DNA of 63,970 nucleotides, filler included, from Bipalium vagum (taxonomy: Eukaryota): assembly GCA_037834085.1 (NCBI GenBank). It is 3 parts of 3 records of this genome, joined end to end, with 100 filler letters (N's around TTAATTAATTAA, not from the genome) between each part and the next. Parts side by side here need not be neighbours in the genome. Positions count along the whole stretch, not along the records: positions 41,105 to 63,970 come from JBBMKC010215582.1; 2 more parts are not named here. One strand, 5' to 3'. Within the stretch, counting starts at the first letter, position 1. Each line of letters begins with the position of its first letter. A program made the position numbers and the translations under genes. The notes below the pieces were generated by a model. That model did not search any database and had not been told where the DNA came from. It saw only the letters and a program-made list of their open reading frames with translations. Shown piece by piece: positions 4,957 through 63,800 of the stretch.

Positions 4957-5210
4957 TTAAATGGCATTTATTGCAAAATACTTGCACTTAAGGTATGATA
5001 TACTATTACCCTTCTTCAATACGACATCTGCCAAATGCGATGGTACAGTTTTGTAAAGGTTTTGTATAACTTTCGGATCAATAATTATAGTCTCTGTCAA
5101 TGATTTTAATGAGGCCTGTATGACTAGTATACTGCATTTCGTCATAAATTTTAAATTCCAATAAATGCCAAACATTTTCTGTTAATAGGACATACGGAGT
5201 TCTAAGAAAC
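4957..5210 (-). mobile_element. Tc1 transposase C-terminal fragment
   Basis: ENVWHLL followed by QNLYKTVPSHLADVVLKKGNSISY, a typical Tc1 C-terminus. Confidence 0.65.
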
Positions 5211-5299
5211 TTGACACTTATTATTTATTGCTATAATTTTATTTTTATACTATTTTTTATATTATCAAACCCAATTGAATAGATTATTATTAGTACTGA

Positions 5300-6240
5300 T
5301 TTATACAGAAATTTCATTTTATATTACGATATTTATTAAGCCGAAGACATTCAAGACTTTTAATTCAGATTAAATAGTAGTCCTTCTTTCTTGAATTTAT
5401 AGTCAGATATAGAGATTTCGATACCTGACATATCAGCAAATGTGTTTTACATAAGTATTTATCTAAATACTTTTTAAAAAGATAATCCGTTGGAGCCAAG
5501 TCGGGTAAATATGGAAGATGCTGCAAAACATCATTATCCAATTCACGTAGCTTTTAAAAAGTTTTCATGGAAACATGTGGTCGAGCTTAAATTGGAGCAG
5601 AATTACTCCTTTTCTGTTGACTAATGAAAGCTGTTTATTGTTACATTTTTGGTGTATTATTTCAATTTCTGAGTAATATTTGTGGGCTGTGATAGTGTCA
5701 CCTGCATTTAGAAAAGAAGAGTGTGTTAGATCAGCTATAAACTAACAACTGTTATCATAGTTTTTTCAGGTAAAAATCCTGTTGTTGGAAGTGTTTTGTT
5801 GCCTCAGCAACATCCAATCATTGAGCCGAACATTTTCTATTTTTAAAAATTTTTCTTCGCATGTTATTATGGAATTAAAGAAATTGTGAGTCCTTTTGCG
5901 AATCAAGAATGATTTTCAATTCTTAGGAATCAATCAATAAATGTGGTATCCATTGATTTTACTTTTTTACTTTGCTAATCTCTTTCAAGTAGCACTAAAT
6001 TGTCATGGTGCCAACTTTGAATTGTTTTGCAATTTCTTGAACGGATTGAAAGGATTCTGTTCATCATTTTCTTGCAAATCTTCGTTGTAATTACCAACAT
6101 TGAGCCTTCCAGGGTTTCATAGCTGTATAGTACGACCATTAGTCGAATGTTGTTCAAATGGCGAATTAATGTTGCGTGTTGCTTCTGATGCGATATGTCG
6201 CAATTTCCACTCACACTAAAAATTTATTCTCATTTCTTCT
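5300..6240 (-). mobile_element. mariner remnant
   Basis: Minus-strand ARPHV...LQHLPYLPDLAPTDYLF (YSPDLAPSDY motif) near 5480-5590. N-terminal HTH-like segment in an alternative frame of ORF 5975-6214. Confidence 0.75.
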
Positions 6241-7399
6241 TTTGTAAATCAATACATTGTTTATTTAAAACAATTTGAATATTTGATTTATTTAAACAAC
6301 TTACAATATATCATACTGTTAAATTTGACCTTCAAAATGAGAAAAAATATTTTGCTATATTAAATATGGAATGATCTACTACATTTTTAAAATACCGACA
6401 GAAATCGGACGTTTCATATTATATAACTTAATATTTTTAAATTTAAAAATAAATAAAAATATTAATTTGTTTTAATGTCATTTAATTTTTATTAATTTCA
6501 CAATGAAAATAAAATAAACCTTTTGCACTAAAAGATTCTTTTTTCTTACAAGTAATAAAGTTAGATTTTTATGTACATTTGTGACCAAACTTAATCATTA
6601 TTATAACTGTCAACATTATTTAAACTACAATTAGTTGCGGTTAATTATGTAAAAGAATAATTTTAATTTTTTAATTACCAGTAATTAAGTAATTAATAAT
6701 TTTTAATAAATAAAAGTAACCGTTTATTAAAAATTAAAAAAAACTTTCAAATTTTTCTCAAGAAATAATTATAAAAATAAATTATTTTAAAATATAAAAC
6801 TAAATATTTTGTATAATTTTAGTTTTAATTCTTTCACACTTGTTTGAAACAATTTAATCTCACTGAAGTTGATTTATGCGATTTATCGAAAGATACTTTG
6901 AGAAGAATCGATTATGTCGGACATCAATATTTGACCCAGAAGAAAAGAGTATAATGGAGTGTATTTATAGATGTGAACCATCAAATGTTAAGTGTTAATT
7001 ATTTTACCATAATGAAATATGACGTTATTATTAAAAATTCATCATTTCATAGTATCATTGCCATACTTTCTCGGTTGTGTTTCCTCTTACGGTTATCACT
7101 GAAATGTTTTACCCATTTTGGTGGAAACATAATGATTATCATAATTTTAGTAACTTGATTCAATTAATAGGCATAATTCTGTGGAAACACTCAGTTTGGT
7201 GAGTTTATTAAATAACAGTAATGTGTTGTGAGATAAATTGAAAATTAGTCGGAGTATGTAGCTCCAGACGCGTCCAGATATAAATTAGTAAAGGTTTAAG
7301 AACAAGTCTTGAATAAGTCTTATTTATTATCTTTGTTCACATAGTTTTTGTTGTTGATTTTTCTTTTTCCTCAGGTCTCGAGACCATTTAGTTACTGTC

Positions 7400-22700: not shown

Positions 22701-24110
22701 AATTCTACGGTTGGAGACAGATTACTTCGATTTTTATCAATTGAAAACCATATGGATACTCAGACAATAGAAGAAAGAATGGAAACTATTCTCAAGGCCT
22801 TAAAATATGGTCCGAAGAGAAAAGGAAAAGAGATCTATTATATTTTTTTAGATGGAATTGACGAAATGTCTTACGACCATAGCTTACAATGGATTCCGGA
22901 CTGTACCTCAGCTACAATTGTTATGGTAATCAGTAGCCTAATTGATCCTGATAAAGATTCATTCTACTCTCTTTTAACAAATTCCCAAAAATGTATAAAT
23001 GAATTCTCAATAGAATCTATGGAAAGACATGAATTACTCAGTATGGTTAACGATTATCTTGACAGTTTTGGAAAGAGGCTAGATTCCGATCAAATAAGTA
23101 AACTGATGAGTTTTAAAAACTCTAACAATCCACTTTGGCTGATTTCAGCTTGTGAAGAGCTTAGGATCCATGGTGACTATTCCACATTGACGAAACTCAT
23201 CCTATCTTTGCCTCCTACTATAGCCGAGTTAAATGAGATGATTATTAAACGATTATTAAGACAGGATTCGAAGAATATTTTGAGAACATTTCTTCAATTA
23301 CTTGTGATTTCTAAGTCTGGTTTATGGGAGAGCTTAGTAAAAGATATGTTGGCCACAAGATTAAATTATCCCGAGACGGTAAGTCATTGTCTGTGGATTG
23401 ATGTTAAATGGCAATTTAAAGGGTTTTTACTATTTGAGGCTCAATGTCTACCACTCATCAAATTACGGCATAGAGTAATAAAAGAATCTATTGAAAAAGA
23501 ACTGTCCATGGGCAACAAATTTCAAATATCCCTGCATAAAGAAATGGCTTTATTTTATGAAAAGCACTTAAATAATTCAAGTCATATGTTTCTTCCAGAT
23601 TACATATATCATCTTGTCAAATCCAATTCTCGCAACCAATTGATAAGGTTCATGAGAACTAGAAGGTCATGGGAAATATTTAGACAATCATATATTCGTG
23701 GAATGATAATGTTAAGTATGCGCTGTAATAATAAAACTATTCACTGTTCCTCAAAAAAAGAAGACGAGTTGGTCATGTGCAATTTTTGTGCCCATAAGTC
23801 TGGAGAGTTATCCATCCATACATCGAACAGGAATTGTTGTTTTTTCTGCGGAAATGTGATTTTCAACAATAACATAAAAACAAAATTATTTTCCTGTCAG
23901 TTTCATAAGCAATTGTCTTGTCAAAAGAAATGCAGTTTATGTGAAGGGGTGACATCGAGTTTGGGAAGAGTGAAACTTCAAGTCTGTCAATTGTGTCAAG
24001 TCGGCAATGAATTTGGAAAGTGTGGAGTTCTCGTTAAAGAAGAAGACATTCTGTTTGATCAACAATTGGAATTCAGTAAAGCTGTTTATAAAATTGAAAA
24101 CTTTATCTAA
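13792..24110 (+). CDS. DUF4062 + STAND/NACHT NTPase (TEP1/NPHP3/NWD-like) with C-terminal Cys-rich zinc module; 3 exons, 838 aa
   Basis: Exons 13792-13829, 14781-15191 and 22043-24110 join at GT-AG sites with matching phase 2/2 into one 2517-nt ORF. DUF4062 signature IRIFISSTFRDFHNERNLL...ECDLRWGI...GDRFGW, then SVTLMEI. Walker A GQAGMGKST (about 22584), Walker B YYIFLDGIDE, NPLWL motif. Exon 1 is the least certain. Confidence 0.88.
19800..20307 (+). mobile_element. mariner 3' half, in intron 2 of the STAND gene
   Basis: LLLDNARPHIA and HPS*SPDLSPTD motifs; TIR-like end aaaactttctgaacagcctaa followed by TA. Confidence 0.85.
20628..21910 (+). mobile_element. DD37D (maT-like) Tc1/mariner element, full length but disrupted, intronic
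   Basis: TA-flanked TIRs cagggtgaccagaaaa / ttttctggtcaccctg. Motifs GSGRKRT, FSDERLFTIE, VMVWGGV, FQQDSTPAH and PPYAPDTNPMHYSIW. Stops and frameshifts present. Confidence 0.9.
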
Positions 24111-42474: not shown

Positions 42475-45400
42475 TCACAAAACCGATATTTTATCTTGTT
42501 TCGAGCTTCTATACCGTTTCGAATGGTTTGGACGCTTCCGTTTTTCTTTTCTCCATTCCAGGAACTCTGTGTCTCGAAGCAGAGCCGTATTTTCTTCATT
42601 GACATTGGTTTCTGATGAGCTGCTGTCTAGCTCCGACAATTTTGACTGGATTGAACCCGGGAAATATTGATGTATCGAGTTTGGAAATCGGTGAAAATGA
42701 CCACGGACCCACTTGTAAAGAGTAGTATAGAGATTGGGAAATTTCAGGTCGATATAGTCCGCTAACCCACTCGGGTTACTGTTGAATAGGGTTTTTGATA
42801 GATCTATAGGCAGTTCGTGAAAATGGTTTCTTTTGTTTCTGAGCGCTCTAGCAAGATTTGACAGGTTCTTTGACTGCTCGACAGAAGACAGATAGAAAAA
42901 TCAATAACACCAATGCAAATGATGAGATTTTACAAACGCCAACCTTGTAACTCCTCTGGACTGTGAGATTCTCAATCAGCTCCGGTTCCAAATCATCTGT
43001 CCACTTGTCGGGAAATACGTCATTGCTTCTTTTGTCCAAAGAAGTCTGCAAAGTTGGATTGTTTTTCTCTATGAAATCTGAGACGTCCTGAAAACCAAAA
43101 AGAAAAATAAACCAATAAACAATCTCCTAAGCCAAAAAAATAACATAAATATTAATAATCAATAATTTTTTTTGCTATTTTTGTCAAATATCAACAAATC
43201 TATTGATCATTTCTGCGTGTATGATAACCTCGCGAATAATTTATTGATTCTCCTTCCACAGATATTCAACAAAAAAATTAATACAAAAGACTAATTAGTT
43301 CATGGATTTTTTTTTCGGTAACGGTATAAAGAAACTCATAGGACATTGGTAAAATGTTGTAGATGCCAATGGTGCATATTTTGATTCATAAAATTTTTTA
43401 TAATGACTTATCGACTTTTGATTTGTGATACGAAAAAGAAACAACACTTCCCCCAAACTAATATTTTATTCTTTTCACAACAAAATCTTAATTATGAACT
43501 TCATAAATGATAAAAAGAAAATTTGATTTTTTTTGCTTTCAAAACTTTTGAGATCACATTTCTCCAACCAAGTATTACTTAGATTTTTTTCAAATAAAAT
43601 AACAGAATTTATTTCGTAAAGATATTTTCATTTGTTAAAAACTGATCATAATAAAAAATATTAATTATTATTATTATTATCAAAAATTAAATTATAAATA
43701 TCATAATTAAAATGGTTGTAAAAAATTTCCAAAATAATTATTGAAATTTTTATATTTTTATTTCAATATAAAAAATAATTTTTGAATTTATTACGTTGAA
43801 TATGTTTTAAATAAATAAATTTTAAAATAAAATAAATTTTAAAAAGTTTAAATCATTGGTCAAGAAAATTTTTTTTTCGATTTTAATATTTTTTCGTATT
43901 TAATTAACTGTTTTATTAATTACTTATTTGTTGATATTCAATTTTTTAATATTTTAAACACAATGATCAATAAAGTTTTAGATCTGAAACATCTATGAAA
44001 TTTGACTTCTGTACATAAAAAAGTAAAACTTCTCTAAATCCACTCTATAATCGAAACACGGCACTTTGGGAAAAAGCAATATTATGCACTCTCAATAAAT
44101 AACAGAAAAATTAGACAAGATTTAATTTAAGTTACTTTTCATTACTTGAAAATAAAAAAAGTTACTTAAATAAATATTGATAAAAAACTTAGATTAAATC
44201 TTAACCTAAAAATTATTCGGATGAAAAATACCTGAAAGATAAAAAATTTTAAAATCAATATTTTGTTTTAAACAATCAATAAATATATTACATACAAATC
44301 TTAAGAACTATAAAAGAATTTTGAACTTCAAATTGAGACACTAATGAATGGAAAAAAATAAAAATGAGGCCCTATTGGTGAAATATTATAATTATGTATT
44401 ATAAATTACAAGATAATTTATAATAACATTTTTATAAAATGATCAATACAATTTTGAAAAATTGAGTTAAGAATTAAAATAATATAGATTCTAAAAATCG
44501 ATTTTAAATGTATTAATTAATTTTTTTCTACGATAATTTCATTAAATAATTATAATCAAACAAATTCAAAGTGAAACATTCTGTTTTATAAAAATCGTTG
44601 AAATACTAAAAAATCATTTTATTGAGATAAGGATAAAATCAACGTTCAGCTTTCAGTAGATAAATAGAATACTTACACAGAGAAATGACAACTTCTTCAA
44701 AGATTCCCAAAATAAAGGACCACAAAGAATTTCTTCTGCACAAGGTCTCTTACTCGGAGATGATTCAAGCATCATGGAGATGAAATACATGACCATGTAG
44801 TCTGTAGACCATATCAATTATTTTTATTATAATAAATCGCTGACAATGTTAAAATAATAATAAAATATTTCAAAAGTTCAATATTATTTATCTGAACACT
44901 TAAGATTATTGCTTCTACTTCAGAGCTAACACAAAATAAAAAATGAATAACATTTTGAAAAAATATTTTTTAAACAATTTTTTAACATAAATCGATAATA
45001 ATTTCTTTGAAATATTAATGAACAAATTTTTGCTGAATATTTATTAGCATAAATTTGAAACAATGAACTAAATCTGCTTCATGTGTAGTTTTTATATGGG
45101 TTAAATAATTACCATAAATTTGAAAACATGGTGTTGTATAATGTACAAAATATGACGAAAATGAGATTTTCACAATTATTGTTCGATTTCAGTATTTTTT
45201 TACTTCAAAATTTACTCGAAATAACGTTTTAAAATATTTGCATATTCTCTATAGCAGAAAGATAGCACCAGTTTCTTAAAAATAATCTTAAAAGAAAATT
45301 GATTTCAGCCAGTTTTTTTAAATATATTATGCAATCAGAAGTAAGAAATCACATTTTTATTAATACCTACCGGTTTGGAATACATAAAAGTAAGTCTTAA

Positions 45401-46439
45401 ATAATTTATTAATTGATAAATATGCACAATATTTAAATACATTTCATCAAACCATGGGGTTTTAATATATAAGCAATTTTTAAAAATACAGTTAAATCTA
45501 AATTATATGCTGAACATTATTAATTTACTAAATTTATTCTTTTAAGTTATTAAATTAAATTCCATAATAAATTAATCAGAACAATAAAGTAACTAACAAA
45601 ATACTTAAAAATTTTTTATAAGCAGGCATTAATTTTCTAAAACCAAGATATTATAAGTATTGAGTTGTTCCATTTTATATAGCGTTTTATATTTAAAATT
45701 CCACAACCTGTACCTTATTGGTTAATAAATATATATAGACAGTCAATAGTAAATATATTTGAAAATAATCTTATAAATAGTTAAAAATTCCCGTTATCTG
45801 ATCAGCCTCTTTATAATCATTATTATTTATTATTGATGTAATTTATATAAATAACTTAATGAATAATAAAATATACATTGTTGAACAAATGTTTTGACAA
45901 ATTAAAATAAAAATAGTGTTTATTTTATAAATAATCACTACCCATTAAAAAAGTTCGTTGTAAAATATATTTTCATAATTGCTATAATTTTAGGAGTTGA
46001 AAATAAATTTTATTAGAGAAATAAAAAATTCAAATAATTTTAATGGTTAATTTATTTTCTTCAGAAAAAAAAATTAAATTTCAAATAAGAAAAGAATTAC
46101 CAGTGATAAGACCGTGGTCGAGATGGTAATTTCCCTCACGAATTCTATGTTGTCGAGACAAGATGTCACTACCAAAAGGATGGTGTCCGTCGGTAAATAC
46201 GTAGTAAAACAAAATTCCACACGAAAATATGTCGCTACTTTTGCTCTATCATTTGAAAATGACAATAGACAATCAATGTTTTATATAATCAAACGTACAA
46301 TTCGTGTCACATCATCTCGACCAAGTTCCGGAGCCATATAACCCGATGTACCTCCACAGCCGGTTTTGGTGATTGAATTTCCACTATCTACGCTTTGGCG
46401 ACTCAGACCAAAATCGGTAATTATTATCTTGTATTGAAA

Positions 46440-46514
<75 letters not shown>

Positions 46515-49500
46515 TCTTAAAGGAAGTCGCAGCTGGACCTTATTTTTTCTCATAATAAGAACGTTTTTTGGCTTTAAATCGCGATGGACTGAAAAATTTT
46601 CTCTTTATTTTCGTATTAATATAAAAACGAATTTCATACCAATTCCTCTATCATGAAGATAATGAACGCCAACAACTATCTGTTTGCATATACTGAGCTT
46701 ATCCATGACACAAACCTCTTTAAGCTTAACACCAGAAACATACTCTTCCAGTGTACATTCACAGAGTTCCAAAGCAAGAAATGTAAATTCCCTTGACTGA
46801 GTCTAGAAAATGTTGTTTTCATTACTGTTACTATAATATATTATAATATCTCGAAAATTGAAAACAATTGTCACTCTACACATTTTCTATATTATTTTAC
46901 AAATAAAATTATTTATTATAAATATTTATTGACTTTTCAATCAATACTTCAAGTGATCATTAGTAATTTGACTGGGTTTAATAATAATCGTAATAATTAT
47001 ATATTAAAATAATTATATCCAAATAAGTTCTTGTAGATTTTATTAAATTGATATTTCATTAAATAGTTAACGAATTATTCCTCAGAAAATCAATTTGTTT
47101 TATTTGATTACTTTAAATGAAGCATATAATTTAAAATTTAAAATATCATTAATTCATATTTAAATTTTTTTAATAGTCAAAATTGCGGACAGAAATTTAA
47201 TCATTCGTTTTTGCTTACTTTATAAATTTAAGCCTGGATCATATGCCCTAGAAGCCAGTTGAAAATTTTACTCGGCATTTGGAGAAGTTGTAATAAAGAA
47301 AAGAACTGGTCGTTTTTGGTTCGAGAAGTTTCGTTCAAATGATGAAAATCTGTAAGACCCGTTAACATGACCAATGATGACTTGAGAAAAACAATCGAGT
47401 TATATTCAATTCAAACGTGTAAGGAGCTTGGTTTGATATTTAATGTCAACAAAGAAACAACCAGATTAGAAAGAGATAGTTAATAAGCAAGTTGGTCCCA
47501 CATGACTTAACGACAGAGAATGGATCTCTTCTCATCTTAATCTTAGTCATCTAAAAGTAAAGCCACATGGAACACTGATATCCGATTAAAGGTAAGTAAT
47601 GTATTCTAAACCAAAGACAACACATCATTGACTATCTCCTACGGATCCATTACAATAAGTGCTTATTGCTGGACATTGCACAAAAAGCTTTTACTGTGTT
47701 TGATGGACTTATGAGGGAAACAATCATTGAGTTCATAAAACCGAAAGAAACAATAACCGCTGACATATATTAGAAAAATTATTAGAGAAATAGCAGGCGT
47801 TAGTGAACAGAAATAAAGTTCTATTTCTTCAAGACAATGCTCGACCGCATGTTGCAAAAAAATAATGATCAAGATAACACAACTTGGTTGAGAGATCATG
47901 TCATCCACCATATTCCACTAATGTCTCGTCAACAGTTTATTTTTTTATTTGAAGGGAAAGAAGTTCACAAATGAAATGGATCTAAAAAAAGAAGCGCCAA
48001 TTTCTTCTTCAGTAAGAAAAAAGTTTTTTATGAAAATAGAATTACCAAGTTGCAAAACCATTTGGATAAACAATGAGATGGATCATATTTAATGAATAAA
48101 TATATCTAAAATTAGAAATATTGACTTTTTTTTTAAAAAAAAACTCAGCATTAAATATTTGGATACCATAACAATAACAACTCAAATTCAACAAAAATGA
48201 AAATTTTCAACATAAATATTTCAATATATTGAAAAACAAAATGAAACAAACCAGTCTATGTTTAAATATCAATAATTCAATTAAGCGATTTTTCACTGAG
48301 CATTTTATTTACTTTCTGGACATAAACTTTATAAAGTCTTAAAACATTGGTTTCGTGATATTTTTAGGCTGCTTATTTATTACCACATATTTTCAATTTT
48401 TAAATTAATCATTTTCATTCGTTATGAAATGTTAATAAACAAAAATAAAAAATCAAATCACTTTAGAATCAATTATTTAGCACAAAATAATAATAATAAT
48501 AATAATAATTAGTATTAATAATAATAATGAATGAAAATTGTTTTATTGTTTAAATCGTTTTCAATCATTAGAATAGTCTGTTACGACAGAATATATTTAC
48601 ATTTCTTATATGAAACTTGATCATAGCAGAACTATACAATTGTTTTCATAACAAGATTGATATTATCAAAACAAATGACATCATTTCCTTTCGGAAGACT
48701 TTCGATCTAGGAAATGTATCTAAAATACAAATATCGAATAGTTTACAATAGGAAAATGATCGATTATGTAAATGTGCACTTCGAAAATGAAAAGCAAATA
48801 TTATTCAAAAAGATATTTATATAACTACTTTACACTAGAAAATAACACAACAGTCTTGAGGAACCTATTAACATGAATTTTTTCAATGTGAATCGATCAT
48901 TAAACAATTTCGATCTCGAAACAATTTCTTCAACACTGACAGAAATCAAAATCTTTAAATTGAAGAATTTATCGATTGATTTCATACTAAAAACAGTTAT
49001 TTGTGGGTTTTATAGTGATTTTTTATAATTTACTAGAAAATTTTTTTAAGTCATTCAAAAACACTTTTATTGATCTCCTTTAATAGCCATTGACAATAAT
49101 AAAGATTGAGTCAATAATTTTTAAAGAAACGAAGTTATTAAATTGATTTTTAATTTATTTATTTATAAGTTTATTATTATTATTATTATATATATATTAT
49201 TTATTTATTATCATTGAATATTATTATTCTATTGTTTTACAGTATAGTATACTTTATTTATTATTAATACTATAATTATTATTTCTCACTGAATATTTTC
49301 AACCTAATTCATAAGTTTATAATGAAAAAATCAAAGGACTATCAAAATTGATGAACGTACAATATAGAAGCACTTGATCAAATTACTGCAATCAAATGAC
49401 TGACGTAGAAATTTGAGTTCGTGTTGAATAAGATCACTTTTCAACAATCTTTTAACGGCTACCGGTTGATCGTTGCTAAGAAAAACTCCTCTGAAAGATA

Positions 49501-51708
49501 AATAATTAATAGAAATAAAATTAATGTTATTTTTAACACAAATAACCAATCAATAGTTGAAGCTAAAATATGAAAAATATCATGAAAAATAATAACAATA
49601 AATATTATTATCATCAATAATAAGGAAAAGATAAATAAAAATACAAAAGATAAATACTCTTACTGATAAACAATCGTTCCGTTTGTGCCATAACCCAGAA
49701 CCTTATCTGGATAGTAACGCAGATCAGAAATTACGATCTCATCATTATCCTTTTGATATTTGATGTCACAAGAATTGTAATTGTCGTTTTTTGGCGTATT
49801 TTTATTTTGGTGATCTTGTTGACTCTTTAGAAACTTCTGAAAAAGTAAGGTCTAATTTAATGATATAAACAACAATTAAATATTAATCAGTTTTCCATTG
49901 CAAATCAATTTCAATTTTTTTCTAATTTTAATATTAATCAATAATGATCAATAAGAAAATTTAATAATGACAATTAATCAATAATATAAATAGTAATAAA
50001 TAATAAACAATAATATTAAATTATAATCCTTAAAATTACCGATAAATATCAATGGAACCTCACCTGTTTTGTAATGAGATATGTTATGTAAGTGACCATT
50101 ACAAACGTTGCGAAAACAAATATGCCTAATATCTTAATCTGGATTGAATCACCTTGTATAAATGACGATTGCTGATATGAATAAAGCTTATCATTCTCTT
50201 TGGAAATTAGAGATGTGTTGAATCTGAAATGAAAAATTAATTAAGCTGTTGGCTTAAGGTTGTATTATGAAAATGGAAAGTCATTACTATTAATAATTAC
50301 GAAAACCTGAAAACGGTTCCGGATTAATATATTATTCATGATACATCATTATTATTACAATCAGAATTTTAATTATAATTTTCCAATGTAAATCGACAAA
50401 TTTAAATAATGGAAAAATTAATTTGCACGCCGGTTTTCTTTTCACTTTAATGTAAGAAATATTTTAATTCTTAATCGATTAATTCAATATCGATAAAAAT
50501 AAAAACAATTACAATCGATATAATAGTTCATGAATAACAATTATGAATATAACAAAAAGCTAACGGAAATAAAATAATAATAATAAATCAATTTATTTTT
50601 GGTTATTTGAATGAAATGTATATTTATTCTTATTATAGATATTCACTTGAAAAACCCATTATAACAAAGTAAAAAAATTGTTTATTTAGTTATTTCAAAA
50701 TAATTAACGTAGAAATAAATTCCATGTTTGAAGAACATTCATTATTTTTTATAGATTTAATAGAAAAGCACCTGCTAAACCCGCACTTCTGCCTTACAAG
50801 TGTCGATAATAATTTGAAATTATGGTATGAGAAAAAAATTACAATCAATAAATTTTCAAAAATTTTTCAAGTAACAATAATTAAACTATTAACAGAAGTA
50901 TTACAATAATTTTAAAAAAATAATTCATAATAATATTTAATAATAATTATTAATAATAGAAATTTTAAAATATTTTTAAAAATTCAAAATAATAATCAAT
51001 AACAAATAGTAAAAATCAATTGAACTACTAACTGGATTCTATCGAAATCTAAAAGATAGTTCGATATGACAACTCTGTTATGGTTGTTAATAAACTTTTC
51101 AGGTGGGATTTCATAAAAACCTTTAATTAGTTTATTGTTGTTACTTAAATCTTGGTTTTTTATCGATCCGTTCACCGGTCCAGCTATCAATGGCAAATGT
51201 TGACGAGAATTTGTTTTAATTTTATTATCCTGGTGAATGAATGTCTTGAGCACGTACCAGCTGTTTGTTGCCTGACCAAAAAAAACTGCTTTCCTTTAAA
51301 AAATAATTAAACCAATTGCAGTATAAACCACATGGGAACATATTGAAATATAAATCGGAAATATTTTTTAATCAAACTATCAGGGAGAAAAATATTTATA
51401 TCAAATAAAATAATGTAAAGTAAAGATATTTCAATAAAAAAAATTTCAAATAATCAATATTTGTTTAAATTTGAGCAGTTATGACATTAATAAAAATTTA
51501 ATGTTAAATATTTACCGAAATCCATTCAAATAATTTCAGAGTAAATAACCCTGTTGTATTTCAAACAATAAATGATTAAAATTAAAATCCTAAGCGAAGA
51601 AAAATCATTTAATTTAACAGAGTAATAAAATCAAATTAATATCTTAAGTTAATATTAGAAATGTATAGGAAAAATGGAAATAAATTGTAAATTATTAAAA
51701 TGTTGCTG

Positions 51709-51746
<38 letters not shown>

Positions 51747-54700
51747 TCAATAAAATATAAGGATAGTTTTATAACATCAATTTTTTTATATTTGAATTTA
51801 AGTAACTTATCATCTATTTTCTCAAAATTAAAAAAAAATTCTTATTTGACAAATAGAAAATAATAATAAAATCAAGATTTAATTTAAATTTTGAAAATAA
51901 AAATGATACAAGACAAGGAAAATTGATTTTAATTACTATATCAAATTTAATAAAAAAATCTTCATCTGTAATATTCTTCTATTATCTTTCACTTAAGATA
52001 TAGTGAAAGAAAAACTAACTCCACCTCTCAGTTATCGATGCATTTTTGGTTACTATTAGCAACAAGACATGTATTTGTTTAAAATAATGCTCTTTTCATG
52101 TTTAATTTTGTTTTTCCATTAATACTTTTCTTTGTAATTCTTTAAATTCTAACAAACTTTAATGAACGTCGATATTCCTGTAATAGTTTCATTTTTCTAA
52201 GTGTCAATCATTGATATAACAGAAAAGGACTACTTCAAACCAAAATATAAAATAAGAACTCTCAAAAGAATTATTGAAAAAATTGGCAAACCCAAAAATT
52301 TCAATAGAATCTTATAAAAACACTAAAGTCAATGAAATAATTCAATTATAAACAATATTTAAATATATATACTATTTTGTTATACAGGGTGTTTCATAAA
52401 TATGTATCCGCGTTTAAAGAAAAAATAATCAACTAATTTTCAACCGTCTTTTTGTACAAAAACTATGCAAATAAAAATTGGCTATCAACCAATTTAATTA
52501 ATAATATATTGAAATAGTTTTCATTCCTTGGACATCCATACATTTTTGTAATCTTGGCAATACAGATCTGAAAACTTTCTGACAAAGATCTACTGGAATC
52601 AGACTGATTTCTCCAAAAAGTTTTCCAGATATTTATAAAATATTTATACTTTTCCAGTGATTTATCTTCAATAGTACATGGTGTCCCAAAAGTCAGTGGT
52701 AATTTGAATGTTTTATAATTTTTTGAAAATTTGATTTAATTGAAATTTCTTGACATTTATATGATAATCGATCTTTAAAGTTTTATTAAGACTTAAAAGA
52801 TTTCAGGTAAAATGAGTTTTTGTATATAAAAAATGATTCCTGTTCATTGAAAAATTCTTATTGTTTAAACGGGTTTTTTTAAACACCCTGTATGTTTAGT
52901 CAATTTAAAATCTATATGTTTATAAAAAATCATAAATCAAATATCACCAAAAATATAAATCAATATGTAACTAATTGATTTAAAGTTTTAAAAAATTAAT
53001 TAAAATTGCGAAATACCATTGCGACATGAAGTTCAATAAAAATCTATAAATAAAAAAACGATAATTAAAATTTCTTAGATATTGAATTATTATTGAAATT
53101 TTTTTCGAGTTTCTTCGAAATGTTGCTTTACAAAAAATAAATAATATAAATATATGTTCACTAAAATTTGAAAAAAGTTAAAAATCAATGTAAGACAATC
53201 TTAAATGATGAAGTATGCCAGGCTGTCCAATATATCTTTAGGTATACAGAAATAAAATGAAAAATCAATATTTTATATATTTTTAAATAGTTCAATACTA
53301 TTGAATTTCGTAAAAAAATCTTTATAAACAAGATAATCAATAGAAAAAAAAATATTATAGAATATTACTTTAAGGAAACTTGGTTGTGATTCCAAACAGA
53401 TTTATTGAAGAACAGATACAAAAGCGTCTGGTGCGACATGGACGTAAATTGGACTCGGCTGAGAATGCCCTGAGAAGTGATCTCATATAATCCCGTAACC
53501 GACGAGTCCAGTGTGGTCGACCAGCCGGTTTCAATGTCTGATCAGAATCACGATTTTAATGGAATATCGATCAAAAAGTGTACAGTTAACAAACCGTTCG
53601 TTTTGAACTTGGTAACAACCAGGCCCGAATCACTGGACACGTAGTGGCGCATATCTGCAATGGAAAATCAATGAGAGGATATGAAGAAATCAAAAACTCT
53701 GAATTCAGGCTTTCTTTTAATCTAATTTTTAATCGACTCACCGTATTCGTCCAAATCAGTAGCGGCGTGAGTTGTCAGAGAATTGAGGAAAACGTTGTAT
53801 CTGAAAATGAATTTTTTTCATTAACAAAAAATTAATTCTAAACATTCGCAACTAATTAACCTGTAAAAGAAGCACGAAATGTTACTAGTTTATCAATATA
53901 TTTAATTAGTTCATGGTGGTTTCCGTTACAGAAAGGATAAGAAACAATGTGGTCAGTTCAGTTACTTTCGGTAGTTTATAAGAATTGATTGAAAAACGAA
54001 ATGATAAAAGAGAAACAGTAAAGAATTGAGAAAGCAAACAGAAATAGCAGGATGTGATTATACTGATTTTAGAGAAAAATATCCGAAATGTTTCATTAAG
54101 AAGAAAGAAGATTTAAGCCAACCCTTAACACGTTTTTGTTGGTTAGTATTTTTGTCTAAAAAAATAATAAGGATAGATTTTAAATGAAAATTTTATTAGA
54201 ACATTTAAAATTGAATTCTTGCTAACGAATTCAAACTTTTTACACAGAAATCTCAAAGCATTTTGATATAATGAACACTGACGAAAGTGTCAAATTTTAA
54301 TGGGAAAACCAGTGAGCGAAAGAATTTAAAAAGATCGTCTCAAATATGAGAAGGAAAACTTTCAATCCAGAGATTAGTGAAAACTTTATTTCGATGATAA
54401 CGAATGTGATATTTCTTATTCATCTTTTTCCAAAGAAAAGATCCAAGGTGGTTGTCACAAATACCACTTTACTGATTAAATGGATTTTTTGGTTCAATTT
54501 ATTGTAGTCTTCGTTACAAAAATAATAAGACTTGATATTTCAACTTCTTGACAATACATCTAATTGATTTTTTATTGATTAGAAATAATCAATAAAAGAT
54601 GTTACATCAGAGAATTTTGGAAAGCCCTAAGAACGAAGTTCGCAACATTATTTTAATAACTCATATTAAGATAGTTTCAGACTATAAAAGGGGAATAGTT

Positions 54701-56614
54701 TTAAATATTTCGTTATTGATTTTTCCGTTAATTTCCAAGGCAATGTAGTAAATGAAAGAAGCTTTGACAACATAAAATCCAGAGAAATAGTGAGGATCAA
54801 TGGAAAGCATAAAGGAAATTCGAACAAAATAGTTAAAATTTACTTGAAATAACAAAAATAATGAGTTATTTCATTTTCCATAGACGAGTTTCACATATAA
54901 AAATGCAAAGATTGTGCGATACGAAGGTGTACCTTCGTTTTAAAAGATCATTCTCCATCATTATCAACAAGGATTGTTTTTTTTTACAATGAACTTCTCT
55001 GAAAACATGTAGCTTAGATTATCAACAACAAAACCAAACGATAACGTAACTGTTTTCAACAATCCGGATCAACAGACACTGAAATTGAATCCATTAACCG
55101 ATCAACTGCAAATACACGACCCACCACAATGACACATGGTAATGTGTTTTATTTGATTTTCTTATTAGAGATTGATTATTTTTCTGAGATATGGCCAATT
55201 ATCAACAATAAAGTAATTATTTATTTATACCAACGGTTCTCGACCTTTTCAAAAATATTACATTTTTCCTAATCATAAACATGCAACCCCTATGGTTTTG
55301 AAATTGAATTTCATGTTTTTATAACAAGATCCAGATCACTGTCACTACTAATTTCGAGGTAGCGCTTCAGGTTGCTGGACTCTATTAACTCCTTGGATAG
55401 AACTACATCATAAATGATATACTGGTTTCACATTCACATTCTTGTGAAAAAGAAGTTTAGAAATGCCTCATTTTAACTTGTTTCAGTGATGTCGATGATA
55501 TCATGGAGCAGAAATATATTTGAGAAAGAGGAAGAAGTCAAGATTCCAACAAAAGAAAATTTTGAAGTTTTAATAAATGTGGGGAAAACTGAAATAACAA
55601 CATAGTTTTCAATTTTTGCGGAGGAAAAAACATTGGAGAGCGGTGACACTGTAAAGAGAACAGAATTTCTCTAAAAATAAAGTGAAAATGATAATCATAA
55701 AGACTATTATTTGTGAATGGAAAACTCTCCTCTAGCGTTTAACATTAAACAATATGTATATTATACCTATTTTTTCCATTCTTTCTGGGATCTAAGAAAA
55801 TACAACCTCCTAATCACAGGTTGGAACCATTGATTTAGATGATGTCCATATATTTCACAAAGACATGAATTTATTGTCATATTTCGAATAAATTCATAAC
55901 TTTGATACCCTCCAGGAAGAAAAACAACAACCTATAATCTTATGGTATTTACACTATTTAACCGTTTTTTCTCGAAGTATTAATGTTATTACAAGAATTG
56001 AATATTAAATAATATAAACTTACATTATTTGTCTGCTAGTGGGTTCACTCACTACAAGATTGTATTGGCAAATCCCAATGAATATCGTTCGATTTAACTG
56101 AATATTGTGATTGCTCTGAGGACAATTGTCATTGTTACCCGTTTGATATTTGTGTAGAACTTCACCGGTTTCGATATCTATTGACAGCCATTGGTCGCTT
56201 TTGCTACCAGTTAATAATAGGTTATCTAGAAATAACGGAGTCTTTTTAACATAATCCATCAAACTATATTCCAGGGGTGAAAACACATTTCCAGTTATTT
56301 GATGATGAAATATGTACAGTTTTCCGTTGATTGGATTTGGAATTAATATTGAGCCATTAGTAGTTGTTGTTTTGATCACAGGTGATAATTTAGTTGACCA
56401 CTTTAATTCACCAGTATATCGATCTAATAAGTGAATATTTCCATTTATTGTTGATGCAAATAATAAATTATCATGTGAATCCTGAAAATATTAGTATTAG
56501 TATTAGAAGAACCTGTAACGAAATACAAACATCGGAAATTTTCAAAACTTCGTTTTCACAACTACAAAATAAGCACAATATATGAAAGATAAAGACTGAA
56601 ACATGTATAATCAT
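42475..56614 (-). CDS. IRE1: IRE1 serine/threonine kinase / endoribonuclease (UPR sensor); 15 exons, 939 aa
   Basis: Phase-consistent GT-AG exons: 56614-56531, 56481-56024, 53800-53742, 53654-53595, 53537-53369, 51293-51033, 50223-50064, 49836-49664, 49490-49361, 46802-46640, 46588-46299, 46245-46101, 44801-44677, 43087-42944, 42873-42475 (2820 nt). Signal peptide MIIHVSVFIFHILCLFCSC. Luminal domain LLFASTINGNIHLLDRYTGELKW and LIPNPINGKLY. TM ILGIFVFATFVMVTYITYLI. Kinase LGYGTNGT, VAVKR, ALELC, HRDLKPKN, DFG, APE, DIFSCGILFYYVFTDGHHPFG. KEN RNase RSYK...LARALRNKRNHFHELP. Confidence 0.95.
43200..43462 (+). mobile_element. mariner 3' fragment in an IRE1 intron
   Basis: GIKKLIGHW*NVVDANGAYFD followed by a TIR-like end. 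Confidence 0.65.
46440..46514 (-). repeat. Coding (AAT)25 microsatellite = poly-Asn in the IRE1 kinase domain
   Basis: In-frame within exon 46588-46299, between HRDLKPKN and the DFG motif. Confidence 0.9.
47010..48170 (+). mobile_element. mariner element in an IRE1 intron, decayed
   Basis: IRFCLLYKFKPG, WVPHDL, QDNARPHVA and HPPYS motifs. Confidence 0.85.
52385..52890. mobile_element. Non-autonomous Tc1/mariner (MITE-like) element in an IRE1 intron
   Basis: TA-flanked inverted ends cagggtgttt / aaacaccctg; about 500 bp; no intact ORF. Confidence 0.7.
53860..55750 (-). mobile_element. Possible highly decayed piggyBac-like element in IRE1 intron 2
   Basis: Fragmentary DYNK...DQ-like motif near 54500 and a coding-like composition. 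No clear TIR pair. Confidence 0.25.
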
Positions 56615-57483: not shown

Positions 57484-57819
57484 TTAGTGTATAAATTTTA
57501 ATTGTTGAGTTACAAAATCAAGGATAAATCCGCGAATTTTTGATAAAATATCCACGCTAATTATACACTCGAGTTCATTATTTTCCATTAACTTCAATAT
57601 ATGATCTATATCGTGACCCATTATTCTAATAATACTTCTGCATGTTCCTAATAAAGGTACTAATTTGCCATCTACTCCTATTACTGATATCGGTGATGTG
57701 TTTACTGCAGCTTGCTCCTCTGCGTTTAAAAATCGAGCGTCAATGAGAGATGTCTGTGCTCTAGTATATACTAGAGCCAGAACTCTATGTTTATTTACTT
57801 TGATCGTAATCATGGGTCG
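57484..57819 (-). pseudogene. Retroviral-type aspartic protease 2 (catalytic motif decayed)
   Basis: RPMITIKVNKHRVLALVYTRAQTSLI...VIGVDG...IISVDIL. YTR differs from DTG by single-base changes (TAT vs GAT, AGA vs GGA). Followed by IIPARHE, typical of the PR-RT linker. Confidence 0.8.
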
Positions 57820-57987
57820 GGTTTCGTTGGTTATGAATGAATTTCTTACGTAATTCACACTAGGTGGTGGTGAATTATTGTCGTTTCTATTTACAGGGTG
57901 ATAATTAAAATCGGAAAATATGTCTATTTGATCAAATAATGAGAGGACTTGTTGCATACTGATTGTGGCATTATATTCGGCTACGGC

Positions 57988-58617
57988 TAGTAGAGTTATA
58001 TTTTCTGTTAATTGCTTGTCTCGAGCCATGTCTAACGCAGTTTGACCGTATATATTTCGGTGAAATAAGTTTACATCAGGCCTTTTAAGCAATATTTTAA
58101 TTATTTCTGTATTTACTTCATGACGGCTTGCAAGATGAAGGGGTGTTTCATCGTTTAAATATTCTCTCTCGTTTACGTCTGCCATAATTTCATTGTCGTA
58201 TCCTCTGAGTTCAATCATTAACTTTACTGCTTCTACAAAATTTGATGACACCGCTAAATGTAGGGATGTTTGAATGTTGTTTCGATATCCTTAGAACATT
58301 TGGGGTAAGTGTTTGCATTGGATTTGTACCATTAAGTATCGCAAGGCATCTATATTGGTGGCCTCTAAAGCATGGTCTATAATTGATTTGCCTGCTTTGT
58401 CCCAGTGATCTATTTTACATCCACTCCCAACTAATTTGATTTTTACATTTAATGAAATATCACATGCAGGTGTTACTAGAAGTGGTGTATGTCCAAAAGT
58501 ATTTTCGAAATTGAGAACCAATCTAAAATTATTTTTTATAATTTAGATTATTTCAAGTGCTCCTGCTGAGTTTCCTTTCAAAATTGCGTTGTGTAATATG
58601 GTATCACCGTACTTATC
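57988..58617 (-). pseudogene. Six ankyrin repeats (IkB/Cactus-like) inside the retroelement polyprotein
   Basis: GDTILHNAI, GHTPLLV, GKSIIDHA, QTSLHLAV, ETPLHLAS and GQTALDMA. Same reading frame as both proteases; two point stops. Confidence 0.85.
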
Positions 58618-58984
58618 AGGAACTGTGAATAAAGCAGATATCTTTCTAGCCATTTCGTTGAAGGTTTCTTCCTTTGTTAAGCCCATTGCAAAATAATGAG
58701 CTATTTTGGACATGTCAGTAAAGAATTGTCTTAGAGCATTTGTGTGCATATTTGAGTTTACTGTGGCGGGCATAGGTGTAACTATCATGACGGGTTTTTC
58801 TATCTGTTGATTAGACTCGTTTAAGGTATTGTTTTCGTTTGTGCGGTTTTCTTCTGCCATTTCCTCTATTGTTTCTTCTCTAATGCCAAGTACCTCCTCA
58901 AATGATTGAATTGAAGATGCACCACTAGATGAAGACCTTTCACTATCGGATTCTTGAGGATTTTCTGTATACATTTTATTTGTT

Positions 58985-59292
58985 CTTAAATTTAGTACCA
59001 AATTGGGAATCCTTTTTAATAAGTCCATGCCTACTACACAACTACTGGAATTTGAGTCAATTAATTATATGGTATGTTCTAATACTTGGTTTAGGAGGTG
59101 TATTGTACAATTTAATGTACCTGTGAGACAATATGGGGTATTTCCTACTTCGTATGCTACCGTAGGGTTATATTCGAGACGCTCTTCCTCTTGTTCTGTT
59201 AAAATTTCCTTGTGTAAGCATCACGTTTGTGAACCCGTATCAATTAATTCTAACATTATATGCTCATTTATCTTCATGACTACATATGGCCT
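58985..59292 (-). pseudogene. Retroviral-type aspartic protease 1
   Basis: RPYVVMKINEHIMLELIDTGSQT*...CVVGMDLL; intact DTG; two in-frame stops. Confidence 0.85.
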
Positions 59293-59739: not shown

Positions 59740-61520
59740 AATGTCTTTTCGATGTCTTTTGTGCAATTCTCGATTGGCTGTTGGTGAACATATGGCTATA
59801 ATTAATTTCCATGAGCATCCTAGTGCGTGATGTAAACTGCGGCCTGACATAAAGCTGCTACCGATTCCTCTTAGTATTTGGAAAATGAAGTATATACCTG
59901 AAAATCCGGCAACCCATGTGCCAAATGTATTAAAACCTCCTCAAATATACGTGATGACATTTTTTGCTGCATGTATGTAATGGTCTGCTCCGAATAATAG
60001 GTTGTAATCCATTTTCCTTTACCGGGCATTATAAATTTTCGTGATCATTTCTATTATACTTCTCTTTTGTGCCTGAGGAAAGAGTATTACTTTCCTGGCC
60101 TGATCAATGTCTTCGGGAGAATATATTCCTCCTTCATTAATAGAAGACAATGGTGTAAACTCAACCATATTTTGTCTCTATTGTTTGTACTTTTTCTCTT
60201 GGCGGTTTCCTCTCCGGTAAGGCTATCCATTGTTCACCGATCTTATATAAAGGGGATATAATGGGACCACACATGGCTATTTGAGGCTGTACATTTACTT
60301 CTAGTATTATTATAGTTAATGGGGATACAAACCTTAACATCTTTTGATAAATAATAGGTAAGTCACTAGTACATTCGTTAAATTTTCCTAACGGGACATT
60401 TACTTTCTCGTACTTGTACTTGTACAAGGCTTCGCCCATTTTTCGACTGAAAACGCCATCCTGTACTAATAAGGGTGATGTCAATTCGGGATTATTAATG
60501 GCTAAAAGTAACCGATTTTTTAATATTTCACGTCCTAATTTGCAGTCATTTAAAATAGTCTCTTGATATACGTCTTTTAATTGTTCCTGTAAATCGTGAT
60601 GTAGATAGACTATTTTATTATTTAAATACATATTTAGCTTGATATCTGAGCTATCTTTTATACTCTATCCTTAGTGACGTTTCAATATAATAATAATAAC
60701 CTTTATAATTGGTTTCAAATACTGCTACTCCACACTTTACTACTTGTTTCTTAATAATCAATTGGATTATTTCCTTTTTATCCGTTGTTATTAGAACAGT
60801 AGGTGTTTTTGCTTCATCTATGGCAGAACTGCGTCTAGGAGCTGTTCGGTAATTTTCTGGAATTTTTGTGTATTCATTTTGGGTGTAGTTAAGTCGTACA
60901 TCAGTTATTTCTTGAAATTTTGTCAATTTCAGACTTCTCAGGTTACAATGATCTTTATTATTGTCATATAATAGTGTTGCTTCTTTTGTAACATAATATC
61001 CTTTTTACAAATTACAACTGGGTTTCGATAATAGTTGTCCGGTAATGACATCGAATACACCTTCATACATAAGTAGTTCAACTTGATAGTCCTCTATATC
61101 TACATATATCGTTTACATCTTGTCCAGACATCTTTTTCTGTTCTCCTTCGCATTTCCCATTATAATCTATTGATCCCCTTGTAACTATTTGTCTTGTTAT
61201 TGTATTTTCCTTTACCACAATGGCTATTTTGTCATCTATTCTAATTTTATTGAATTGAAAATCATTTTCACATGTTTCGGCTGTTACACGTACTTCTCGG
61301 GGTAATAATTTAGCGGATATTATTGAGTTATGATACGTAATTTCTTGCACCATAGTTTTTGTGGTAGCTACGTTTCGTATGGTTAAATTATCGGGGTATT
61401 TGTAATATATGGTGAAAATCGTTTCTACCTCTGACCATTCTCTCTCTATTTTTTGTAATAACTGAAGCTCTATAGGGGAATTACTCTATGAAATCGTAAG
61501 AAATGTTTCACCTCTTCAAT
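59740..61520 (-). pseudogene. Chuvirus-like envelope glycoprotein (env)
   Basis: Colinear motifs IELQLLQK; GSIDYNGKCEG; YLNNKIVY; CKLGREILKNRLLLA; MGEALY; CTSDLPI; FVSPLT; GGIYSPEDID...ILFP; TM region FGTWVAGFSGIYFIFQILRGIG...LHHALGCSWKLIIAI. These match my recollection of Jingchuvirales G proteins and their retroelement-borne copies. Confidence 0.75.
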
Positions 61521-63185
61521 GTGAATTTCCCGGTTATCCATTGTTGTGCTATTTCGTTAGCATTTCTTACCTCTATTGCTTTATCTGAAATAATAGTGAT
61601 GTGGTTAGATGCCTCTTGTTGAGGTTCGCCTAATCTCTCTACATTCGCATACTTCTCTCTTAATAATGATTCTAGTCTATCAATGTGTGACATGCTTGCT
61701 TCAAGTGTATTATTTATTTCCTTATTATCGTTTACAATATTTATTTTAGGTGTTAGTGCGGGACAACTTCTCTGTAAGTGTCCAAATTTTCCACAAATAA
61801 AACATTTTGTCTTTCCCTCAACATTTACTTGTTGACGTTGGGGTGAGTTGAAATTTATGCTCTGTGGCTGATTAAAATTTATACCTTGAGGTGGGTTAAA
61901 ATTTATACTTCCACACACGTCTTTTACGTGTCCTCTTTTTCCACATTGTAAGCATAATAAATTTTACGCTCTGCATTCATTGGCATTATGATTTTGTCGT
62001 GCACATTTAGTATATTGCTTATTAGCATTATTAATTTCTAATTATTTACTCCCGATACTATTATTATATTCAAATGATTTTCCGTAATTATTATTGTACT
62101 CTAATGGTTTATTATTATATTCAAATGATTTGCTTGCAAAATTATTTCCATTATTATAATTATTTCTATTTGTATATTGATTTACTGGGGTTCTCATTTG
62201 GTTTCGTTGGTTACCTCCATCTAAAACATTATAAGGCTTAGTGGAGTATTCATTTTTTTTGTCATTGGGACATTCTCGGGCTCCATGACCCATTTCATTA
62301 CATTTATAACGTTGTATTTGATTATTACTATTATTTGTTTTAATGGGAGATTTTGGCCTTAATCCGGGGGACTGCGGACTTTTACTTATTACATTTATTG
62401 TTTTCATTTCTACTGCCGTTTTTGCTAATTTTGCCTTTTTTATTAATTGTTCAAACACTTCATCTCTATATAGCATAATAGCTGCTTTGATTTCATATCT
62501 TAAACCTGACCACCATTGGTCTTTTACTATAACTTTGGTATTTTCGTCCCACTTATCTTGTAAACCGAAAGCTCTTTGGGCTACGGTTCTTAAATTATGT
62601 GTATATTCGGATACTGTTTCGTTTAATTTCTGTTTTAAACTATAAAATTGTTGCCTAAATAAATGGCCTGTGTCACCTGTGAAAATTTGTTCTTCTAATG
62701 CTGCTTTTACTGATGCCCAATTGTCATCTTTTCCTTTAGCTACTATATCTAAATAGGCGTCTCTTGCTCTACCTTTTAAATAAGTGGGGAGTCTGTTCAT
62801 CATTACGTTTTCGTTAAAACCATATGCGCGCATTATTATATAATAGTTTGATAGAAGATCAGGTAATTCGGCTGGGTTTCCGCTATAGGTATCCATCTTA
62901 ATATAACCAGTATACGTACTCTATTGTCTTCATGCTCACTTTCGGTCATTTTATTTAATTTATTTTTATTACTTTTTTCTGTAAAATTCGGGCGAGTTTG
63001 AAAACGAGTGATGATAGGTTTTTCAACAATTAAACTTTGCTTTTTGGACTTTTTAACTTTTACTTTTTTAACTTGGCTATCGGATTCGAAATTAACAGTT
63101 GTTACGTTTAGAAAATTATTATTATCTTCAGAATCAAAATTATTATTATTATCAATATGTTTTTGGCCACACCAATAATTTCCAT
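61508..63185 (-). pseudogene. Retrotransposon Gag with four CCHC zinc knuckles
   Basis: Capsid-like LPTYLKGRARDAY...W...LKQKLNETVSEY...GLRYEI. Knuckles (R)YKCNEMGHGAREC, (Y)TKCARQNHNANEC, CLQCGKRGHVKDVC and CFICGKFGHLQRSC. ORFs starting 62896 and 61918 share one frame. Confidence 0.9.
61838..61909 (-). repeat. Three 24-nt tandem repeats in gag, encoding (S/G)INFNxPQ
   Basis: SINFNPPQ GINFNQPQ SINFNSPQ. Confidence 0.85.
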
Positions 63186-63259: not shown

Positions 63260-63800
63260 TACATGTTTCCAATCAAAACTTTCCAAAGCATTATATTTTT
63301 AAATGCAGAAAAGGCGATTTTTTTAAGAACATCACTTTTTAAGTAATTTTGAATACAAATCTAAAACATCCGTAAAACATTTTTTTTATATTTAAAAGGA
63401 CCAAACACATCTTAAAAAACAGTCAACCTCATGAACAATTAAGATACTCAAAATACGTATCTTATATTCATACCTTTTTTAATCACCTCTTGGACCCCTC
63501 TTGGTATGCTTTCATAAGGATTTTTAATCTTAGATGCTGAAATCATTGCCCACTGCTCCCCCGAATTCTTCCACAGTGCCTCAATATTTTCCGGCCTATA
63601 CATAGCAACTCTGGATTTCAGATCAGCCCAGAACGACTCAATTATATTCAGATCTGTTAATTAAGCGGGCTAATCACTCAGTAAGCTTAACTTGGAATTT
63701 TTCAAAGTCACCAATCTTGATTTGTGACATGGAGCTCTAGTTGAAATATATTCTGTGCCTCATATAGTCCTCCTCAAGTTTATTGAACACTTGACATTTT
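63260..63800 (-). mobile_element. Tc1 (DD34E) 3' half
   Basis: APCHKS, DLNIIESFWADLK and NPYESIPRGVQEVIK motifs. It abuts the 5' end of the retroelement gag. Confidence 0.8.

What the first reader, a model, noticed from the sequence alone, without database searches (positions are those of the whole stretch)
57988..58960. IkB/Cactus-like ankyrin cargo with a degron-like Ser-rich leader
Seen: six ANK repeats, the first reading DKYGDTILHNAI, preceded by an acidic/Ser-rich segment ESDSERSSSSGASS. Established: IkB proteins have 6-7 ANK repeats starting DxDGDTxLHxA and a DSGxxS phosphodegron; polydnaviruses and other viruses use IkB mimics. Inference: a retroelement-borne immune or transcription modulator. 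SSGASS (58929-58912) may be a degron relic or simple low complexity. Whether the host even has Rel/NF-kB is unknown.
Basis: partly seen in the sequence, partly recalled or inferred. Interest (0 to 1): 0.75.

Follow-up and report, generated by a model that had tools for sequence, protein, structure and literature searches.

The report
Jumping gene's IkB-like ankyrin cargo
A broken copy of an envelope-carrying jumping gene, likely from a planarian flatworm, holds a six-repeat ankyrin domain that it shares with related jumping genes and with an RNA virus matching the planarian nidovirus; the domain likely worked as a decoy inhibitor of NF-kB-type signalling, but the proposed degradation signal in front of it is not supported.

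Summary
The six ankyrin (ANK) repeats are real but carry two in-frame stops. They lie in a decayed gag-env-protease-ANK-protease Ty3/gypsy copy of the Burro/GYPSM1 type, whose ankyrin cargo has been known since 2007. The ANK block is a stable family trait: other copies carry it, intact relatives keep it under purifying selection, and retroelement ANKs form one clade. New here: that clade also holds the ANK of a virus contig matching the planarian nidovirus PSCNV, whose closest published host relatives are planarian NF-kB-like RHD-ANK proteins. IkB affinity is likely, not shown: repeats align 6-to-6 with IkBs, share their long-short-long spacing, and a relative's model matches IkBbeta, IkBalpha and Bcl-3 best (tied with a DARPin); profile scores and trees do not single out IkB. 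The degron is not supported: no DSGxxS, and SSGASS is absent from four relatives. Best reading: a protease-released, degron-free NF-kB decoy shared by retroelements and an RNA virus. Host and binding are untested. This scan noted an IkB-like ANK in a Burro-like element before, on other DNA (e1-9115182).

The parts
61508..62950 (-). gag with CCHC zinc knuckles, broken by stops and a frameshift
   Evidence: Retrotrans_gag E 2.1e-8, zf-CCHC E 2.5e-5; frames
59750..61500 (-). env-like fusion glycoprotein between gag and protease, with frameshifts and stops
   Evidence: PF24664 Monjiviricetes_fusion E 4.5e-4, 1.1e-26 and 7.8e-21 on three pieces
59008..59286 (-). retropepsin-like domain 1, two stops
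   Evidence: Asp_protease E 7e-8; stops
58912..58953 (-). Ser-rich low-complexity stretch ESDSERSSSSGASS, not a DSGxxS degron
58620..58740 (-). conserved helical segment before ANK1 (H-x-x-A-x-G motif), shared with relatives and the nidovirus
   Evidence: pN/pS 0.24 between L001 and L002; helices in models
57975..58620 (-). six ankyrin repeats, spacing 38-34-39-41-35, in-frame stops at 58545-58543 and 58293-58291
57500..57825 (-). retropepsin-like domain 2, catalytic motif not intact in this copy
   Evidence: RVP E 3.6e-6; matches the last protease of P0166 and the pre-RT protease of L002
57349..57500 (-). post-protease linker; the element is cut off here, no RT, RNase H, integrase or LTR in the window
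   Evidence: tblastn with P0166 runs to 57367; no RT/IN hit with L002 ORF1; GC falls from 0.32-0.36 to about 0.2; no LTR pair found

Best explanation
This is a decayed copy of a Burro-like gag-env-pol gypsy element whose polyprotein carries a conserved six-repeat ankyrin domain between two retropepsin domains; the domain is likely derived from a host IkB/NF-kB-precursor ankyrin array and would be cut free by the element's protease to act as a degron-free decoy that holds Rel-homology (RHD) transcription factors inactive. Shown: the architecture, the family-wide conservation, the shared clade with a PSCNV-like nidovirus ANK, the lack of a degron, and that this copy cannot make the protein. Inferred: planarian host, NF-kB-family origin (about 0.7), proteolytic release, and RHD binding (about 0.5).
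For: Family trait: 420 contigs of run X1 lie on 57940-59000, 316 of them under 95% alike. Contigs about 85% alike bridge ANK-protease 2 and protease 1-Ser-rich. At each stop codon most contig depth reads otherwise (32 and 16 contigs), so the stops are largely private to this copy. Of the best 150 hits of 6,836, six match in one in-register stretch; P0030 is RT-RH-IN-PR-ANK and P0047 ANK-PR, and P0166 is PR-PR-ANK-PR. L001 and L002 are open gypsy ORFs with the block; ANK pN/pS 0.33 against 1.09 in the linker. Retroelement ANK clade 100/99. IkB-likeness: 6-to-6 in-register alignments to three IkBs; long-short-long spacing is shared with those IkBs and found in only 49 of 2,839 windows of 167 generic proteins. 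The L001 model (pLDDT 89) best matches IkBbeta Z 21.9 (rmsd 2.1, 211 aligned), IkBalpha 21.6 (2.2, 208), a DARPin 21.3 and Bcl-3 21.2 among 48,161 chains. Acidic tail after ANK6 in three relatives (8-12 D/E in 35 residues). Top viral-structure hit is the PSCNV polyprotein, E 9.2e-11 against 6.7e-8 for rank 2. L012 ANK against the family profile E 7e-29, against 1e-13 to 1e-16 for IkBs. [quoted passage not shown]
Against: Profiles rank Notch first, or KIDINS220, Notch and MIB1 with or above Bcl-3. The best IkB ranks 17th and 16th of 181 (that generic set was selected for likeness to the query). In one search the clade was sister to IkBs in 0 of 200 bootstrap trees; AU tests reject neither that grouping (p 0.28, 0.32) nor a control grouping with generic ankyrins (p 0.17). 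The window's own model gave no IkB preference, Foldseek E-values did not either, and the top Z values differ by under 1. ANK4-5 spacing is 40-41, against 34-35 in P0179 and P0185. The IkBs used were found through words shared with the family, which biases the shared HNAI motif. Two papers find no clear NF-kB or IkB in flatworms (PMC4484250, PMC11432056), and one finds only divergent RHD genes (PMC13563047). No host RHD-ANK sequence was in hand, and the host was not identified.
Confidence: 0.55

Rival explanations
1. Same capture from an NF-kB-family gene, but the domain no longer binds RHD proteins. It serves the element as a scaffold or spacer, or binds another host protein (for example in apoptosis or ubiquitin control, like the other Burro cargo domains).
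For: Relatives have lost the canonical TPLH histidines in most repeats, some keep only 4-5 repeats, and most carry a signal-like membrane segment behind the ANK. Flatworm RHD factors are divergent, and knockdown of the most Relish-like one did not change transgene silencing (PMC13563047).
Against: Purifying selection on ANK and on the preceding helices; an unrelated RNA virus keeps the same module; the IkB-like geometry is kept.
Confidence: 0.25
2. The ANK comes from a non-IkB ankyrin protein such as Notch or MIB1, and the IkB likeness is convergence within a generic fold.
For: Notch tops and shares QD-x-x-G-x-TPL and T-x-LIL with family repeats 1-2; trees show no IkB sister relation.
Against: Notch aligns out of register and needs gaps of 4 and 6 residues where Bcl-3 needs two single-residue gaps over ANK1-3. 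PSCNV ANK, a clade member, is reported closest to RHD-ANK proteins.
Confidence: 0.15
3. A regulated IkB mimic with a relic phosphodegron (SSGASS).
For: The stretch is acidic and Ser-rich and lies upstream of ANK1 in the same frame.
Against: No DSG; absent in the 160 residues before ANK1 in L001, P0030, P0045 and P0166; 19% chance match; the matching linker shows no constraint between L001 and L002.
Confidence: 0.05

Closest known systems
Burro / GYPSM1 giant gypsy elements of planarians (Jurka 2007, Grohme 2018, as reviewed in PMC6431247, section 7 read)
   Same: gag with CCHC knuckles, env with mononegavirus-fusion hits between gag and protease, ankyrin cargo, decayed copies with stops and frameshifts
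   Different: This copy is about 5.8 kb and cut off before RT. No BIR, BCL2, MATH or SUMO-like domain between gag and env. The ANK's place in Burro is in a figure that was not seen. The review does not call the ANK IkB-like.
PSCNV ankyrin domain (PMC6211748, passages and supplement text read)
   Same: Same clade, same pre-ANK helix and ANK1 motif, 28% identity over 185 residues; proposed IkB mimic
   Different: PSCNV is an RNA nidovirus, its ANK is shorter and lies between membrane segments, and the paper infers capture from the host without mentioning retroelements.
IkBalpha / Cactus / Bcl-3 / IkBbeta
   Same: Six repeats in register, long ANK1-2 and ANK3-4 links, best structural matches
   Different: No DSGxxS degron, only 22-24% identity, embedded in a polyprotein, longer ANK4-5 link
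Viral IkB mimics (polydnavirus vankyrins, ASFV A238L; recalled, and cited in PMC6211748)
   Same: Ankyrin-only inhibitor without the signal-response degron (recalled)
   Different: Those are stand-alone genes of large DNA viruses; no sequence comparison was made here
GAG-ENV-POL errantiviruses with gB-type env in Nematoda, Bryozoa and Platyhelminthes (PMC13524379, passages read)
   Same: Gene order and env type
   Different: No ankyrin mentioned in that paper's main text; RT is missing here, so clade placement is untested

Membership tests
Classical IkB (IkBalpha/Cactus) | Six ANK repeats in IkB register with long ANK1-2 and ANK3-4 links | tested here: met
Classical IkB (IkBalpha/Cactus) | N-terminal DSGxxS phosphodegron | tested here: not met
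Classical IkB (IkBalpha/Cactus) | Acidic/PEST tail after ANK6 | tested here: inconclusive
   4 D/E in 35 residues in the window, 8-12 in three relatives
Classical IkB (IkBalpha/Cactus) | Groups with IkBs in a tree | tested here: inconclusive
   not sister in free trees, not rejected by AU; only three IkBs in hand
Classical IkB (IkBalpha/Cactus) | Binds RHD dimers | not testable with these tools
NF-kB precursor (p105/p100/Relish) | N-terminal Rel homology domain | tested here: not met
   Pfam of the window frame and relatives
NF-kB precursor (p105/p100/Relish) | Helical region before ANK1 homologous to that of p100 | tested here: inconclusive
   4ot9 aligns over model 3-266 (Z 20.2, rmsd 4.1, 237 aligned), but other ankyrins do too; sequence matches to 4ot9 start at ANK1
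Burro/GYPSM1 | gag with CCHC knuckles, env between gag and protease, ankyrin repeats | tested here: met
   against PMC6431247
Burro/GYPSM1 | MATH, BIR, BCL2, SUMO-like cargo and a 25-30 kb LTR element | tested here: not met
   none in the window pieces scanned; copy about 5.8 kb, no LTR pair; so filed as Burro-like only
Burro/GYPSM1 | RT clade shared with Burro | not testable with these tools
   no RT in the window; no Burro sequence in hand
PSCNV-type ankyrin module | Pre-ANK helix plus ANK1-4 homology and one clade | tested here: met
   (100/100)

The most novel reading that the evidence does not exclude
Planarian gypsy elements captured the inhibitory ankyrin half of a host NF-kB precursor, use it as a non-degradable IkB decoy released by their own protease, and passed it on to the nidovirus PSCNV: a retroelement-to-RNA-virus transfer of an immune antagonist. 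The nidoviral ANK nests inside the retroelement clade (97/99, 98), though a retroelement-only clade is not rejected (AU p 0.20).
Probability: 0.3. Interest if true: 0.8.

Novelty: new variant of a known kind. Interest (0 to 1): 0.55.

Why it matters
It gives the long-noted but unexplained ankyrin cargo of giant planarian retroelements a testable identity, and ties it to the ankyrin of the largest-genome planarian nidovirus. If true, retrotransposons carry an NF-kB decoy, the divergent flatworm RHD factors matter in defence against mobile elements, and retroelements can hand cargo to RNA viruses. This copy itself is dead, and ankyrin cargo in such elements is already in print.

Tried and rejected
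No whole genome is held, so the host donor gene and host RHD genes could not be sought. A host search with the window's NACHT gene gave only 27-28% hits, so the host is unidentified. One search (whole protease-ANK-protease frame) found only generic ankyrins. No RNA holder was listed. The first viral scan found nothing; the second found L012. Eight weaker loci (L004-L011) were not examined. Codon positions of the 40 listed differences (of 207) were 15/7/18, p about 0.09, so uninformative. The mixture-model careful tree did not finish; LG+G4 trees were used, and the bootstrap had not settled. The higher likelihood of the constrained tree did not hold on the better alignment. One IkB duplicate (P0189) was dropped, and 24, then 8, generic stretches were picked by profile score. 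A sequence test of the pre-ANK helix against p100 was negative: 4ot9 was not among the 60 shown. A PDB search for likeness of the acidic tail was uninformative. One search was an irrelevant comparison. No complex was predicted, for lack of an RHD partner. Grohme 2018 was not held. Paper searches showed no paper linking gypsy ANK to IkB or to PSCNV (listings only, apart from the papers named). Figures (Burro Fig. 2A, PSCNV Fig. 6 and S16) and the Repbase report could not be seen and may bear on novelty.

Full report
Observation. The - strand frame 60168-57349 runs 940 codons with 10 stops. It holds the env C-terminus, retropepsin 1, a Ser-rich stretch (58953-58912), a linker, a helical segment, six ANK repeats (58620-57975), retropepsin 2 and a linker. 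Repeat spacing is 38-34-39-41-35. Two stops fall inside the ANK block. Upstream lie a frameshifted env (PF24664) and gag with CCHC knuckles. RT, integrase and LTRs are absent from the window. The copy sits upstream of an IRE1 gene in DNA of about 25% GC.

What the element is. The order gag-env-protease, with a mononegavirus-type fusion protein and ankyrin repeats, is that described for planarian Burro/GYPSM1 elements (PMC6431247, section 7 read). GAG-ENV-POL elements are also reported in nematodes and bryozoans (PMC13524379, passages). A planarian host is therefore inferred, not shown: no genome is held, and the host search was uninformative.

The ANK is a family trait. In run X1, 420 contigs lie on 57940-59000, 179 of them under 90% alike; X1 may be the source sample, and depth is no copy number. 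Divergent contigs bridge ANK-protease 2 (57 differences in 372 letters) and protease 1-Ser-rich (52 in 355). At both stop codons most depth reads otherwise (32 and 16 contigs). Among 1.84 billion proteins, 6 of the best 150 hits match in a single in-register stretch. P0030 and P0047 carry retroelement domains, P0072's cluster mate P0166 has protease-protease-ANK-TM-protease, and P0032, P0045 and P0089 show only ANK by Pfam but are 65%, 91% and 55% identical to L001, P0047 and P0047. Three of 11 metagenome loci (L001-L003) hold the block in open gypsy ORFs, here behind integrase, so the protease-ANK cassette sits at different places in the family. Between L001 and L002, pN/pS is 0.33 for ANK, 0.24 for the pre-ANK helices, 0.04-0.06 for RT/RH/IN and 1.09 for the linker (synonymous sites near saturation).

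The degron. There is no DSGxxS in the frame. SSGASS is missing from the 160 residues before ANK1 in four relatives, and a relaxed match arises in 19% of shuffles. It is low-complexity linker.

IkB affinity, for. In one search, the natural chains first listed after designed repeats are IkBalpha, Bcl-3 and p100, all in register. The family profile aligns 6-to-6 with a clam IkBalpha-like protein, a fish IkBzeta and an unnamed IkB-like protein. Their spacing is 36-33-(39 to 51); the long-short-long pattern occurs in 49 of 2,839 generic windows and 23 of 167 proteins. A confident model of the intact L001 domain ranks IkBbeta, IkBalpha, a DARPin and Bcl-3 first (Z 21.9-21.2, tied), then MIB1 20.6, Notch1 20.3 and p100 20.2.

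IkB affinity, against. Profile scores put Notch first, and IkBs rank 16th-17th among 181 session proteins. Trees give a firm retroelement clade (100/99) with unresolved deeper nodes, never sister to IkB in 200 bootstraps; AU tests reject neither the IkB grouping nor a control. The window's own model was not discriminating.

The nidovirus link. The L001 model's best viral match is the PSCNV polyprotein. A scan with the pre-ANK/ANK1 alignment found one contig, L012: 41,178 nt, with one frame open across the 6.2 kb fetched, a Thr-rich stretch, fibronectin II and ANK at the position given for PSCNV. Its ANK shares the pre-ANK helix and ANK1 motif, scores E 7e-29 against the family profile and lies in the clade (100/100), inside it next to the relatives with the window as the deepest branch (97/99; 98); a retroelement-only clade is not rejected (p 0.20). 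PMC6211748 (passages; supplement text; figures not seen) reports planarian RHD-ANK proteins as the closest host homologs, proposes an IkB mimic and does not mention retroelements. This is the strongest tie to NF-kB, and it is indirect: those host sequences were not in hand. Other papers (passages) find NF-kB and IkB absent from flatworms (PMC4484250; PMC11432056) or seven divergent RHD genes (PMC13563047). Term look-ups in PMC4993586, PMC13238120 and PMC7958881 added nothing.

Mechanism. Inferred: after the env membrane anchor the polyprotein is cytosolic, and the retropepsins would free a six-repeat domain of about 30 kDa that lacks a degron and so would hold RHD dimers through signalling, as recalled for viral IkB mimics. 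Relatives and the nidovirus add a signal-like hydrophobic segment behind the ANK, which this lineage lacks. This copy cannot express the domain.

Verdict. Known cargo in a known kind of element, dead in this copy, with a rejected degron but a likely NF-kB-family origin and a link to the PSCNV ankyrin that the searches listed did not find in print. Interest 0.55.

Noticed in passing
L001 6861-9923; L002 7268-10374; L003 2318-5424: Two accessory ORFs follow the polyprotein; the second has a DEDDh exonuclease (RNase_T E 6.5e-9 in L001), and the first looks like a degenerate one by eye.
   Followed up: partly
L002 10906-11517; L003 5956-6576: ORF ending in a weak ubiquitin/SUMO-like domain (E 0.04-0.1), recalling Burro's Ubi2 motif.
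   Followed up: partly
L001 about 5200-6660 and L002 ORF1 C-terminus: After the ANK come a signal-like segment, a Cys-bearing ectodomain of about 400 residues without a Pfam hit, and a membrane anchor: an unexplained surface protein fused to pol.
   Followed up: no
P0166, L001, L002; window 59286-57500: Two or three retropepsin-like domains in one polyprotein, travelling with the ANK as a cassette before or behind RT-IN.
   Followed up: partly
window 42475-56490 (-): Host IRE1 gene (luminal, kinase and RNase exons); an AAT microsatellite abuts a kinase exon near 46440-46515.
   Followed up: partly
window 14737-24110 (+): TEP1-like DUF4062-NACHT gene with a Cys-rich C-terminus, only 27-28% like its nearest hits.
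   Followed up: partly
window 1009-1804 (+) and about 63450-63750 (-): Tc1/mariner transposase remnants (Pfam for the first; the second by eye only).
   Followed up: no
window 59730-59640 (-): Basic His-rich stretch (SKHRHHHHRKH) between the env anchor and protease 1.
   Followed up: no
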